A stretch of 15,640 bases of DNA from the UHGV virus genome UHGV-0333408; one strand, 5' to 3'. The stretch comes from a virus. A program made the translations under genes and the position numbers. The notes under the pieces were generated by a model, which was given only the letters and a program-made list of their open reading frames with translations, had not been told where the DNA came from and made no database searches. Of the stretch, positions 4,571-13,046 are shown piece after piece; position 1 is the first letter of the stretch, and every line of letters starts with the position of its first letter.

Positions 4571-4607
4571 TGGTGGAGCTGGCGGGAGTTGAACCCGAGT
4601 CCGAAAT
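4571..4607 (-). other. 37-bp copy of the 3' end of tmRNA (ssrA), one mismatch; putative prophage att core (attL-type junction)
   Basis: The + strand reads TGGTGGAGCTGGCGGGAGTTGAACCCGAGTCCGAAAT. This is the reverse complement of the E. coli ssrA 3' terminus (...ATTTCGGACGCGGGTTCAACTCCCGCCAGCTCCACCA) with a single C-to-A change. No tmRNA body follows, because 4615-5439 is protein-coding, so this is a partial att-type duplicate and not the gene. Confidence 0.8.
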
Positions 4608-4614
4608 AATTTAA

Positions 4615-5439
4615 CTATTTGTTTTTATTGTAATCGTGTTCATTTATAAAATCTGCGTAGCTTTTGCGTATCCTTTGACGTATTGCAGCAGTCCTACTTT
4701 TATTGAGCTTTTTAAACGTAAAGCTTGCGACATAGTCTATTGAACCATTAAAAGTCTGCGAGTCGACCAATGCGACTTCGGTTTCAAATAATTCAACAAT
4801 ATGTTTACCACCAATATCTTGATATTTTATTTCTAACATTGGTCCTTTAGTTTTATAAATATCGATTTGACCCTTAAGGTTTAGCATTATATCGTTCATT
4901 AAAAAGACTAAGGAAAGTGTTTGAAATTTTAGCTCAGCCTTTGTTTTTTCTACACTGTATGGTAAAAAACATTGTATGAATTCACTTTCCTTATTAATTA
5001 TATGTGTCATCATTCGGAGGTTGCTTCTTGAATAAAAGATTAGGTCGTTGTCACTTTCTTCAAAATGATAATTAAATAAAAATCTAGATGGGTCGGCTGG
5101 AGCTTCAGCGGAATTTAATTTATATAGCCTCTGCTGAAGATATTGTGCATATTCTTGGTGGTTGAAAATCCATTTATACTCGATATTTACAGCAGCACCT
5201 AATCCCGGATTTATTACATTGATTTTATATTCGTTATAAGTATTCCCATTTAAAATGTCTAAATCAAAGTCGTTTTTTACATTGCATTTACCTTTGAAGT
5301 GAAAATTTTGAGGTATGATCTGTGGTCTATACATACTTCTTCTCTGCATTATGGCTTGATAAATACCACAAGCAGCAAGAAATGCTGATATCATTGCAGC
5401 AATGCTGGAAACTACAGCTATCCATCGATCTAAAGTCAT
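4615..5439 (-). CDS. Hypothetical membrane-anchored protein (274 aa), AT-rich moron between att core and int
   Basis: Uninterrupted ORF. One predicted N-terminal transmembrane helix (WIAVVSSIAAMISAFLAACGIY) is followed by a basic stretch (QRRSMYRPQ), suggesting a cytoplasmic C-terminal domain. GC content is visibly much lower than the flanking prophage backbone. No motif I recognise. Confidence 0.7.
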   Translation of the reverse strand: MTLDRWIAVVSSIAAMISAFLAACGIYQAIMQRRSMYRPQIIPQNFHFKGKCNVKNDFDLDILNGNTYNEYKINVINPGLGAAVNIEYKWIFNHQEYAQYLQQRLYKLNSAEAPADPSRFLFNYHFEESDNDLIFYSRSNLRMMTHIINKESEFIQCFLPYSVEKTKAELKFQTLSLVFLMNDIMLNLKGQIDIYKTKGPMLEIKYQDIGGKHIVELFETEVALVDSQTFNGSIDYVASFTFKKLNKSRTAAIRQRIRKSYADFINEHDYNKNK

Positions 5440-10872: not shown

Positions 10873-11133
10873 ATGCAATCACCATTACGGAATGTGCGTA
10901 AAGCGCACGGATTTACTTTGCAGCATGTTGCTGCGGGCGTTCAGGTCAATCCAGCGACGCTGAGTCGTATTGAAAGACTGGAACAAATTCCATCTATCGA
11001 CCTTGCAGAACGTCTGGCCAATTTTTTTAAGGGTGAAATCAGCGAAATGCAGATTCTTTATCCGGCACGTTTTCAATCTAGCCAAAACCAGAATGGGTTT
11101 AAACCACAGGAACAGGAGGTAAGCCGTGGGTAA
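10873..11133 (+). CDS. Cro-like HTH transcriptional regulator (86 aa)
   Basis: HTH_XRE signature (GFTLQHVAAGVQVNPATLSRIERLEQ). GGAGG lies 5 nt upstream of the ATG. Divergent from the cI-like gene across the operator region. Confidence 0.8.
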   Translation: MQSPLRNVRKAHGFTLQHVAAGVQVNPATLSRIERLEQIPSIDLAERLANFFKGEISEMQILYPARFQSSQNQNGFKPQEQEVSRG

Positions 11134-11677
11134 GCATCACTGGAAAGTGGAAAAACAACCTGACTGGTACGTGAAAGCTGTCAGAAAAACTATCGCGGCA
11201 TTGCCAGGTGGTTACGCTGAAGCTGCTGATTGGCTGGATGTAACAGAGAACGCATTATTTAATCGCCTTCGTGCCGATGGTGATCAGTTTTTTCCGTTGG
11301 GATGGGCAATGGTTTTACAGCGCGCGGCTGGCACTCACTACATTGCGGATGCTGTCGCACAGTCTGCTGGTGGGGTGTTCGTATCGCTTCCTGAAATTGA
11401 GGAAGTAGAGAACGCCGATATAAACCAGCGCCTGCTGGAAGTCATCGAACAGATCGGGAGTTACTCAAAGCAGATTCGTTCGGCAATCGAAGATGGGGTC
11501 GTGGAGCCACACGAGCAGACAGCAATTAATGATGAGTTGTATCTGTCAATTTCGAAGCTCCAGGAGCATGCAGCACTGGTCTACAAAATCTTTTGCGCTC
11601 CAGAAAAGAGTGACGCCCGCGAGTGTGCAGCTCCGGGCGTCGTGGCGTTTTGTGTCTGTGGAGAAACTAACGCATGA
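11126..11677 (+). CDS. CII-like regulator (CP76 / YdaT-like family), 183 aa
   Basis: GTG start with AGGAGG 7 nt upstream, overlapping the cro stop. Lies immediately downstream of cro, as CII and YdaT homologues do. The family call is from recalled resemblance and position, not a confirmed match. Confidence 0.55.
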   Translation: MGKHHWKVEKQPDWYVKAVRKTIAALPGGYAEAADWLDVTENALFNRLRADGDQFFPLGWAMVLQRAAGTHYIADAVAQSAGGVFVSLPEIEEVENADINQRLLEVIEQIGSYSKQIRSAIEDGVVEPHEQTAINDELYLSISKLQEHAALVYKIFCAPEKSDARECAAPGVVAFCVCGETNA

Positions 11678-12825
11678 ACAGTTTAACGGCAAATAACCGT
11701 TTGTCGCAACAACCGGTGGTCAGCGTCGCTGAACACCGGTTGTTATGGCATGAATGCAGATTACCAAATCACCTGGCTGTAAGTAACCACAGAGAACTTT
11801 ACCTGACTGTGGGGGGCGAGTTGTGCAGGAACTTAACCGCTGGTTTCGTGACGGAAGAGGACTTTATGTTCATGTTATTCGTTGGGAGCCAGAAACACAG
11901 CGCGTTATCTATCTTCGCAAAGACTACCCGCATGAGTGCTTTAGTCCTTTGTGGAAATTCAGGCGTGATTTTGTTGAGTGTGAAGGACCACCAGCACATT
12001 GATTCTGCCATTCCGGGACGTTACACTGTTCAGGCACCTTATAAAACGGGTGCCGGGCGTGGAAACCCGGAATTCACCAAAGCGCACAACCGCGCTCTTG
12101 CGGTTTTTTTGTGTCATGAGCAGCATTACGCCCAAATTATGGTGGGGCGTGCAGGGCCAACTTCGGTTGGGCCGGGTTCTTTGGTGACCGGTATTTCCAC
12201 CCCTGTACGTCTCACCACCAATAAGGTCGTGGAAAGCCTTGGTGGTGAGTTATTAAAAATCACCAAAGAGGCTGCCATCATGGCTACGATCCCAACCCTC
12301 ACTCAACCTGAAATTGCCATCGTTGATGGTCAGGCTGTTACTTCATCCTTGGCTGTTGCCAACTTCTTCTCCAAACGTCATGACGATGTACTGAAAAAGA
12401 TCCGCACGCTTGAATGCTCAGCATCATTCACTGCCCGCAATTTTTCGGTGAGTGATTACACTGATTGCACAGGTCGCAAACTTCCTTGCTACCAAATCAC
12501 ACGCGACGGTTTTGCGTTTCTTGCTATGGGTTTCACGGGTAAACGTGCTGCCCAGTTCAAGGAGGCATACATCAATGCCTTTAACCAGATGGAGAAACAG
12601 CTTTCAAAGCCCTCTGTACCGAGCGACGTTGCACATAACGCCAGCGTTCTCTGTTCCTACATTTCATCAATTCATCAGGTCTGGCTGCAGCAGCTTTATC
12701 CTATGTTGGCAAAAGCCGAATCTCCGCTGGCTGTTAGCTTGTATGACTATATTAATGATGCTTCGGCACTGGCCTGCCTCATAAATTTGTCGCTGAACCC
12801 TTCAGAGGTATGGGGGCGCAAATGA
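11674..12825 (+). CDS. Rha-domain phage regulatory protein (383 aa as read; N-terminal ~200 aa of uncertain coding status)
   Basis: The C-terminal ~180 aa (from the ATG at 12280, which has AAGAGG upstream) reads as a Rha / ORF6N-type domain (PTLTQPEIAIVDGQAVTSSLAVANFFSKRHDDVLKKIR ... ITRDGFAFLAMGFTGKRAAQFKEAYINAF). The N-terminal 200 aa has atypical composition, and an alternative-frame ORF exists at 11823-12002. Confidence 0.6.
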   Translation: MNSLTANNRLSQQPVVSVAEHRLLWHECRLPNHLAVSNHRELYLTVGGELCRNLTAGFVTEEDFMFMLFVGSQKHSALSIFAKTTRMSALVLCGNSGVILLSVKDHQHIDSAIPGRYTVQAPYKTGAGRGNPEFTKAHNRALAVFLCHEQHYAQIMVGRAGPTSVGPGSLVTGISTPVRLTTNKVVESLGGELLKITKEAAIMATIPTLTQPEIAIVDGQAVTSSLAVANFFSKRHDDVLKKIRTLECSASFTARNFSVSDYTDCTGRKLPCYQITRDGFAFLAMGFTGKRAAQFKEAYINAFNQMEKQLSKPSVPSDVAHNASVLCSYISSIHQVWLQQLYPMLAKAESPLAVSLYDYINDASALACLINLSLNPSEVWGRK

Positions 12826-13046
12826 TCCGGAATATTTTCAAACGGTTTACCAATCAGACTTTCCGTTGTCCTCGCCCCGGTCAGTGGTACACCACGCCTG
12901 CAGGGCATGTTCTACGTGTCAGCCTGGTTGACCGTGAATGTCAGAAGGTGATTTGTGAACCGCTGGGCCGTAATTATCGCGTCAGTATGCCGCTTATAGC
13001 CTTTCGCTCCGGAAAAAACATGAAGCATCTCGGAGGTGCAGCATGA
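12822..13046 (+). CDS. Small prophage protein (74 aa)
   Basis: The ATG at 12822 overlaps the upstream stop as ATGA and has GGGGG upstream. It is part of a chain of translationally coupled genes. Confidence 0.5.
   Translation: MIRNIFKRFTNQTFRCPRPGQWYTTPAGHVLRVSLVDRECQKVICEPLGRNYRVSMPLIAFRSGKNMKHLGGAA

What the first reader, a model, noticed from the sequence alone, without database searches (positions are those of the whole stretch)
11674..12825. Rha domain fused to an unusual N-terminal 200 aa, with a competing ORF in another frame
Only the C-terminal ~180 aa (from the ATG at 12280, good SD) looks like a Rha regulatory domain. The upstream 200 codons in the same frame have odd composition. 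An alternative frame at about 11787-12002 encodes a protein-like peptide (VQELNRWFRDGRGLYVHVIRWEPETQRVIYLRKDYPHECFSPLWKFRRDFVECEGPPAH, with a GTG start at 11823). This could be a genuine fusion, two genes merged by a frameshift, a sequencing error, or overlapping genes.
Basis: seen in the sequence. Interest (0 to 1): 0.4.

Follow-up and report, generated by a model that had tools for sequence, protein, structure and literature searches.

The report
RNA immunity switch inside Rha gene
The odd 200-codon "N-terminus" of this prophage Rha gene is really a small DUF4222 gene in another frame plus two regulatory RNA genes (IsrK-like and C4-like) that control Rha, and the long reading frame across them seems to be kept open so that ribosomes can run through the switch, as in satellite phage P4.

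Summary
There is a 383-codon ORF at 11674-12825. Its Rha domain lies only in the last 181 codons, from ATG 12280. A 59-codon ORF in another frame lies at 11823-12002.

The upstream 200 codons are not a protein domain. They contain:
- a genuine DUF4222 gene (Pfam 9.5e-14; substitutions fall on its own wobble positions);
- an IsrK/seqA-like leader RNA with an intrinsic terminator (12034-12110);
- a C4/CI-like antisense RNA (12135-12222).

The two C4 recognition elements are complementary to sites in the IsrK-like RNA and to sites just upstream of the Rha start, the second of which overlaps its Shine-Dalgarno. These elements co-vary three ways across relatives.

The long frame carries no amino-acid-level constraint. 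Even so, it has no stops, only 3n or compensated indels, and an ATGA start overlapping the ymfL stop.

This matches the P4 eta/kil nested-gene arrangement around CI RNA, and relates to P1 c4-icd-ant and Gifsy-1 isrK-orf45-anrP. The Pfam "Ash" domain is the translation of these RNA genes.

Verdict: a new member of a known kind of system. The module is mis-annotated in public records as a single "Rha family" or "peptidase" protein.

The parts
11126..11677 (+). ymfL / CII-like (Phage_CP76) gene. Its TGA stop (11675-11677) overlaps the ATG of the long ORF, forming ATGA.
   Evidence: Pfam PF06892, E 6.5e-15. RefSeq annotates it as 'protein YmfL' in the identical locus. The ATGA overlap is read directly from the sequence.
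11674..12825 (+). Long 'eta-like' read-through ORF of 383 codons. It starts at the ymfL stop, crosses DUF4222 in another frame, then crosses the internal promoter, the IsrK-like RNA, its terminator, the C4-like RNA and the a2/b2 targets. It continues in frame into Rha.
   Evidence: ORF. It is open in all 11 relatives. Distinct stop sites in 11677-12279 are 0 in this frame against 24 and 19 in the other two, and all 5 indel events are multiples of 3. There is no wobble bias upstream of 12280. The P4 eta frame has the same layout.
11823..12002 (+). DUF4222 gene (59 aa, GTG start). It lies in the +2 frame relative to the long ORF and is the real protein-coding frame in this stretch.
   Evidence: Pfam PF13973, E 9.5e-14. 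phrog_1343, E 1e-36. Variable sites by long-frame codon position are 4/22/8, and the peak falls on DUF4222's own third position. DUF4222 ORFs sit at the same place in Edwardsiella, Serratia, Izhakiella and Symbiopectobacterium. It is annotated separately in strain F8 and in phage 1720a-02.
11999..12027 (+). Putative internal sigma-70 promoter: -35 TTGATT (11999-12004), 17-nt spacer, -10 TACACT (12022-12027), predicted start near G12034.
   Evidence: The hexamers are read. -35 TTGAT/TTGAC and -10 TACACT/TATAGT/TATATT are conserved at a fixed distance from the module start in 74 unique modules. In Gifsy-1 the equivalent position is the transcription start used for numbering in PMC4825925; A107 is the first orf45 AUG, checked. 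The simple promoter scan missed the site because it matches only 8 of 12 positions.
12034..12110 (+). IsrK / P4 seqA-like leader RNA. It has hairpin 1, then hairpin 2 with target a1 (GUGGAAA, 12059-12065) in its loop, then target b1 (UCACCAAAG, 12074-12082), then an intrinsic terminator (stem 12088-12105 followed by a U-run).
   Evidence: Rfam RF01394, 67.9 bits against a threshold of 50. Terminator scan. Hairpins 1 and 2 are supported by compensatory changes. a1 and b1 complementarity.
12135..12222 (+). C4 / P4 CI-like antisense RNA. The predicted mature form is about 12141-12219. Recognition element b' is UCUUUGGUGA (12178-12187) and a' is UUUCCAC (12194-12200).
   Evidence: Rfam RF01695, 83.6 bits against a threshold of 45. 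27 consensus pairs, 16 of them with compensatory changes. MFE -44.6 kcal/mol, z -4.1. Aligned to the annotated 77-nt P1 c4.
12139..12141 (+). Internal ATG in the C4 5' stem, equivalent to the first AUG of Gifsy-1 orf45. Here it is in frame with Rha, 47 codons upstream, giving a possible 228-aa isoform.
   Evidence: It lies 106 nt after the isrK start; the Gifsy-1 orf45 AUG is at +107 (PMC4825925). Frame computed from coordinates. 'MVGRAG' is conserved in relatives.
12229..12271 (+). Downstream C4 targets and ribosome-binding site: a2 GUGGAAA (12229-12235), b2 UCACCAAAGA (12260-12269), SD AAGAGG (12266-12271). b2 overlaps the SD by 4 nt.
   Evidence: Complementarity search. Cognate C4:target duplexes average -33.7 kcal/mol against -23.2 for non-cognate pairs. 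The geometry is the same as the annotated P1 a2/b2-icd region. The leader 12223-12300 folds at -28.5 kcal/mol (z -4.15) with the SD paired.
12280..12825 (+). Rha-family regulator / putative antirepressor. This is the short nested ORF (181 aa) and is the part under protein-level selection.
   Evidence: Pfam PF09669, 106 bits. TIGR02681. phrog_821, E 8e-122. Variable sites 54/44/123 by codon position.
12822..13046 (+). Downstream 74-aa gene (phrog_1153, function unknown). Its ATG overlaps the Rha stop as ATGA. The next gene (13043, an HTH/DnaD-like replication protein) overlaps its stop in the same way.
   Evidence: RefSeq CDS in the identical locus. phrog_1153, E 1e-45. Sequence read directly.

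Best explanation
The region is an RNA-based immunity and antirepressor-control module. It is of the type found in P4 (seqA-CI-seqC with nested eta/kil), P1 (c4-icd-ant) and Gifsy-1 (isrK-orf45-anrP). Here it sits inside the early-right operon of a lambdoid, CPS-53/e14-like prophage.

SHOWN by sequence and comparative analysis:
1. 11823-12002 is a real DUF4222 gene in its own frame.
2. 12034-12110 is an IsrK/seqA-like RNA ending in an intrinsic terminator.
3. 12135-12222 is a structured C4/CI-like RNA.
4. The C4 elements a' and b' are complementary to a1/b1 in the IsrK-like RNA and to a2/b2 just upstream of the Rha start. b2 overlaps the Shine-Dalgarno. All three copies co-vary across relatives as specificity alleles.
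5. Only the last 181 codons (Rha) evolve as a protein.
6. The 383-codon frame that runs through all of this is kept open. It has no stops, only 3n or compensated indels, and an ATGA start on the ymfL stop. Its amino-acid sequence is not constrained.

INFERRED mechanism, by analogy with P4, P1 and Gifsy-1:
- In the lysogen, a constitutive internal promoter (about 11999-12027) makes short IsrK-like RNA. Read-through transcripts are processed to release C4.
- C4 pairs with a2/b2, blocks Rha translation, and so causes polarity on the downstream replication genes.
- The IsrK-like RNA, through a1/b1, competes for C4.
- When pR fires, ribosomes coming from cro and ymfL re-initiate at ATG 11674 and translate straight through the terminator, C4 and the a2/b2 sites.
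- That suppresses both termination and C4 control. It yields an N-terminally extended Rha and lets expression continue into the ATGA-coupled downstream genes.

On this view the Pfam 'Ash' domain is the by-product translation of the two RNA genes.
For: RNA genes:
- Rfam isrK scores 67.9 bits and C4 scores 83.6 bits.
- The same pair, at near-fixed spacing upstream of Rha, occurs in 16 further loci across Enterobacterales and Aeromonas.
- C4 has 27 consensus pairs, 16 with compensatory changes. IsrK hairpins 1 and 2 are supported. The terminator is found by the scan.

Targets:
- Exact 7-10-nt complementarity of a'/b' to a1/b1 and a2/b2 holds in 25 loci, with at least 10 different alleles.
- Cognate duplexes average -34 and -35 kcal/mol, against -23 and -22 for non-cognate pairs. 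The cognate target ranks first in most rows.

DUF4222:
- Supported, and by the wobble pattern 4/22/8.

Open frame without amino-acid constraint:
- Codon-position counts are flat: pre-DUF4222 12/16/15, isrK 14/14/9, C4 17/14/18, linker 12/15/13. Rha gives 54/44/123.
- Among relatives chosen by nucleotide similarity, distinct stop sites are 0/24/19 in the three frames, and all 5 indel events are multiples of 3.
- Non-3n indels are compensated in L007, L009, L012, L013 and L016.
- In an independent IMG/VR sample picked by a 19-nt C4 motif, 46 of 75 unique modules are open for at least 98 codons, and all 46 have spacing divisible by 3. The other 29 close within 60 codons. The distribution is bimodal.
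- 30 of 43 open modules begin at an ATGA, GTGA or TTGA overlapping the stop of an upstream ORF.
- Modules whose frame is closed, including P1, Gifsy-1, Aeromonas and Marinomonas, carry 1-5 stops in that frame. RNA constraints alone therefore do not keep it open.

P4 precedent:
- The eta frame has ATGs giving 199, 198 and 197 aa, and the first overlaps the ORF88 stop. kil is 65 aa. The junction '..EAAIMAT..' is shared with the window.
- Pfam Ash hits this ORF over the CI RNA, not epsilon.
- The function of eta translation is summarised in PMC10111431, which cites Forti et al. 1999.

Gifsy-1:
- It has the same isrK-C4 layout. orf45 translation and coupling were shown experimentally (PMC4825925).
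Against: - There is no direct evidence of transcription, RNA processing or translation for this locus.
- The 'translated for the sake of translation' step rests on P4 genetics. I could read that work only through a secondary summary and from memory, because PMC94026 is not held.
- The relatives are not phylogenetically independent, so the stop-site and indel statistics overstate significance.
- Splitting the loci into 'open' and 'closed' classes is partly circular. avoid this.
- The first ~110 codons overlap a real gene in another frame. Ribosomes could instead enter the frame nearer to isrK, for example at GTG 11965 or 11980, as PGAP assumes for the 'ash family protein' of strain F8.
- L014 and L017 carry the same module with the frame broken.
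- The antisense 'shadow ORF' test in Edwardsiella-type loci was weak (P about 0.2, 0.2, 0.04, 0.2).
- That Rha acts as an antirepressor is an annotation-level inference. Gifsy-1 AnrP is not homologous to it.
Confidence: 0.68

Rival explanations
1. The RNA module is real, but the long ORF is never translated. The translated genes are DUF4222 and the 181-aa Rha, possibly also a 228-aa form from ATG 12139. The 383-codon frame is an annotation artefact that stays open by inheritance and by the sequence constraints of the RNAs and the overlapping gene.
For: - There is no amino-acid-level constraint in the first 200 codons.
- AlphaFold gives pLDDT 20-27 and no secondary structure for aa 103-213.
- In this stretch selection acts on the DUF4222 frame.
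- P1, Gifsy-1 and many marine modules work without such a frame.
- Annotators disagree on the start: 383 aa, 324 aa in phrog_821, 287 aa in phage 1720a-02, and 181 aa for the 'ash family protein'.
Against: - Distinct stop sites are 0 against 24 and 19 in the other frames. All 5 indels are 3n.
- Frameshifts are compensated in five lineages.
- Open length is bimodal, at most 60 or at least 98 codons, with nothing in between.
- The start overlaps an upstream stop in 30 of 43 open modules.
- Modules with a closed frame show that the RNAs themselves tolerate stops in this frame.
- P4 eta is an experimentally translated equivalent (PMC10111431).
Confidence: 0.22
2. The 383-aa product is a genuine two-domain protein. 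The 'Ash' region (aa ~117-213) is a folded functional domain fused to Rha, and the Rfam matches are secondary.
For: - Pfam PF10554 hit, E 2e-15.
- Thousands of database proteins carry Ash+Rha.
- The literature treats Ash as a protein domain of unknown function (PMC8951638).
- The frame is conserved.
Against: - The Ash boundaries coincide with the isrK-C4-a2/b2 region.
- Conservation there is explained by base-pair covariation and by three-way RNA complementarity.
- Substitutions show no wobble bias.
- Between the compensating indels of L013 the 'Ash' residues are read in another frame.
- Pfam Ash hits P4's old 'cI protein' ORF. From memory, the P4 literature showed the product of that locus to be an RNA. 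The real epsilon is PF25738.
- There is no confident fold.
Confidence: 0.05
3. Assembly or sequencing error, or a recent frameshift that merged separate genes.
For: Two frames with protein-like translations overlap, which is what first raised the suspicion.
Against: - A 100%-identical stretch occurs in a complete E. coli genome. 555 E. coli records cover at least 80% of the region.
- Both frames are intact in 11 relatives down to 79% identity, including sequenced phages mEp460, cdtI, ST64B and SfV.
Confidence: 0.01

Closest known systems
Satellite phage P4 immunity region: PLE, seqA, CI RNA, seqC, with nested genes eta (197-199 aa) and kil (65 aa)
   Same: - The order of elements is the same: an isrK/seqA-like leader, a C4/CI-like RNA, and a target at the RBS of the first gene.
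- A long ORF starts upstream of the internal promoter, overlaps the stop of the upstream gene (ATGA), and runs in frame through the RNAs into the short gene.
- The junction peptide '..EAAI-MAT..' is shared.
- Pfam Ash hits both.
   Different: - The cargo is a Rha-family regulator of 181 aa, not Kil.
- The module lies in a lambdoid pR operon after cro, ymfL and DUF4222, not after alpA/ORF88.
- The isrK-C4 spacer is 24 nt here against about 107 nt in P4.
- The long ORF additionally overlaps a whole DUF4222 gene in another frame.
Phage P1/P7 immI operon (c4 antisense RNA, targets a1/b1 and a2/b2, icd, ant1/ant2)
   Same: - The C4 RNA aligns to P1 c4.
- a'/b' recognition of a1/b1 and a2/b2 is present.
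- b2 abuts the SD of the first downstream gene, with an 8-nt gap to the ATG.
- Specificity alleles vary between relatives, like the P1/P7 heteroimmunity.
   Different: - There is no icd-like ORF between b2 and the regulator.
- The cargo is Rha, not Ant1/Ant2.
- P1 has no ORF through c4: that frame carries 2 stops.
- P1's promoter is controlled by a C1 operator.
Salmonella Gifsy-1 isrK-orf45(STnc1160)-anrP-isrJ locus (Hershko-Shalev et al. 2016, PMC4825925)
   Same: - IsrK with terminator, C4-like RNA and the promoter hexamers all sit at the same positions.
- The AUG in the C4 5' stem is the orf45 start.
- The a1:a' pairing corresponds to their helix b-I (G28/G31 with C162/C159).
   Different: - In Gifsy-1, orf45 is out of frame with the cargo and ends at an ATGA overlap. 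Here it is in frame with the cargo.
- AnrP is not homologous to this Rha.
- Gifsy-1 has no long ORF entering from upstream: that frame carries 3 stops.
- There is no isrJ match here.
Phage N15 anti-immunity region (CA RNA, icd-like, antA/B/C)
   Same: A nucleotide match to the isrK-C4 part, including the annotated terminator.
   Different: Only a partial match (model positions 2-210). The cargo differs (gp32, gp31, Ant). It was not analysed further.

Membership tests
Rfam RF01695 C4 antisense RNA (P1 c4 / P4 CI type) | Covariance-model score above the gathering threshold | tested here: met
   83.6 bits against 45, full-length model 1-87.
Rfam RF01695 C4 antisense RNA (P1 c4 / P4 CI type) | Long closing stem plus two hairpins, supported by covariation | tested here: met
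   27 pairs, 16 with compensatory changes, in 20 sequences. MFE -44.6 kcal/mol, z -4.1.
Rfam RF01695 C4 antisense RNA (P1 c4 / P4 CI type) | Elements a' and b' complementary to a2/b2 at the RBS of the first downstream gene, and to a1/b1 upstream | tested here: met
   Complements of a' (7 nt): a1 12059-65 and a2 12229-35. Complements of b': b1 12074-82 (9 nt) and b2 12260-69 (10 nt), with b2 overlapping the SD. Cognate versus non-cognate duplex energies.
Rfam RF01695 C4 antisense RNA (P1 c4 / P4 CI type) | Excised from a longer transcript (RNase P) to a stable ~77-nt RNA that represses the downstream gene | not testable with these tools
   Only an alignment to the annotated P1 c4 ends is available, predicting 12141-12219. 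The conserved 3' CACCACC is consistent with this.
Rfam RF01394 isrK / P4 seqA leader | Covariance-model score above threshold, with two 5' hairpins and a rho-independent terminator | tested here: met
   67.9 bits against 50. Terminator 12088-12105 followed by T7. Hairpins supported by covariation.
Rfam RF01394 isrK / P4 seqA leader | Own promoter immediately upstream (PisrK / PLE) | tested here: inconclusive
   TTGATT-17-TACACT ends 6 nt before 12034. The hexamers are conserved at a fixed distance in 74 modules. There are no transcription-start data for this locus, and the generic scan did not call the site.
P4 eta/kil-type nested genes around the immunity RNA | A long ORF beginning upstream of the internal promoter, in frame through leader, RNA and target into the short gene | tested here: met
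   11674-12825 contains 12034-12279 and continues into the ORF starting at ATG 12280. P4 has the same layout.
P4 eta/kil-type nested genes around the immunity RNA | Long ORF translationally coupled to the upstream gene | tested here: met
   ATGA at 11674-11677. ATGA, GTGA or TTGA overlaps in 30 of 43 open modules and in P4.
P4 eta/kil-type nested genes around the immunity RNA | Frame maintained by selection although the peptide is not | tested here: met
   Caveat: the sequences are related.
P4 eta/kil-type nested genes around the immunity RNA | Translation of the long ORF prevents termination and makes expression insensitive to immunity | not testable with these tools
   Known for P4 only (Forti et al. 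1999, as summarised in PMC10111431).
Pfam PF09669 Phage_pRha | HMM score above the gathering threshold, and protein-level purifying selection | tested here: met
   106 bits against 29.9. TIGR02681, 103 bits. Third-position excess 54/44/123.
Pfam PF10554 Phage_ASH taken as a protein domain | HMM score above the gathering threshold | tested here: met
   57.6 bits against 26, aa 117-213.
Pfam PF10554 Phage_ASH taken as a protein domain | Amino-acid-level conservation (synonymous-biased substitution) and a foldable domain | tested here: not met
   No wobble excess in isrK, C4 or linker. Part of the region is read in a shifted frame in L013. pLDDT is 20-27 with no secondary structure, though the model is weak. 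The family also hits P4's obsolete 'cI protein' ORF over the CI RNA.
Pfam PF13973 DUF4222 | HMM score above threshold, own-frame wobble bias, and conservation across genera | tested here: met
   51.1 bits against 27. Pattern 4/22/8. Hits in five other genera at the same position.
P1 immI operon (c4-icd-ant) | A small icd-like ORF as the first translated gene after b2, coupled to Ant1/Ant2 | tested here: not met
   The gene after b2 is Rha itself. There is no Ant-family Pfam hit.

The most novel reading that the evidence does not exclude
The stretch 11674-12279 is a true dual-coding region. Two regulatory RNAs and a promoter are embedded in an ORF whose only selected property is that ribosomes can traverse it. 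Translation entering from the upstream operon acts as a built-in anti-terminator and anti-immunity device. It produces an extended Rha whose N-terminal ~200 residues are dictated by RNA specificity alleles rather than by protein function.

If so, a whole Pfam family (Ash) is the protein shadow of RNA genes. Hundreds of lambdoid prophages, including Stx phages, would use a P4-like translation-gated RNA switch between their cII-like gene and their replication genes.
Probability: 0.5. Interest if true: 0.6.

Novelty: new member of a known kind. Interest (0 to 1): 0.45.

Why it matters
Annotation. Public pipelines label this locus as one 'Rha family regulatory protein', 'peptidase' or 'transcriptional regulator'. 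They omit two well-supported RNA genes and often the DUF4222 gene as well. The Pfam 'Ash' domain is used in the literature as a protein marker, and even as P4 epsilon (PMC8628076). Here it is shown to be the translation of the IsrK/seqA and C4/CI RNA genes.

Biology. The module sits between the cII-like gene and the replication genes of a very common family of E. coli, Shigella and Salmonella prophages, including Stx-converting phages. An RNA switch with many specificity alleles at this position would affect induction, superinfection immunity and cross-talk between co-resident prophages.

The frame-without-peptide conservation gives a clean, testable case of translation used as a regulatory act.

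Tried and rejected
- Reading Forti et al. 1999 directly: PMC94026 is not held. I used the summary in PMC10111431 and checked the stated ORF sizes on the P4 sequence.
- Treating Gifsy-1 AnrP as a Rha homologue: rejected, as BLASTP found no significant similarity.
- Equating Ash with P4 epsilon, as stated in PMC8628076: rejected. Epsilon is PF25738, and Ash hits the old cI ORF.
- Synonymous-codon shuffle test. In Edwardsiella, Izhakiella and Martelella loci the long frame runs antisense through inserted toxin-antitoxin genes. The test asked whether it stays open by selection. The result was weak (P 0.22, 0.22, 0.04, 0.22) and is not used as evidence.
- AlphaFold on an 18-sequence alignment: mean pLDDT 33.8, too poor for a fold search. 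It serves only as weak support that the N-terminal part is unstructured.
- The stop-site test on classes defined by ORF status is circular. It was replaced by samples chosen on nucleotide similarity or on an RNA motif.
- The generic promoter scan found nothing upstream of 12034. The promoter proposal rests on positional conservation instead.
- tRNA/tmRNA search of the window found nothing, so the weak Rfam tmRNA-like match at 4571-4695 was not pursued.
- NCBIfam has no model for DUF4222, for the Ash region or for the 74-aa downstream gene.
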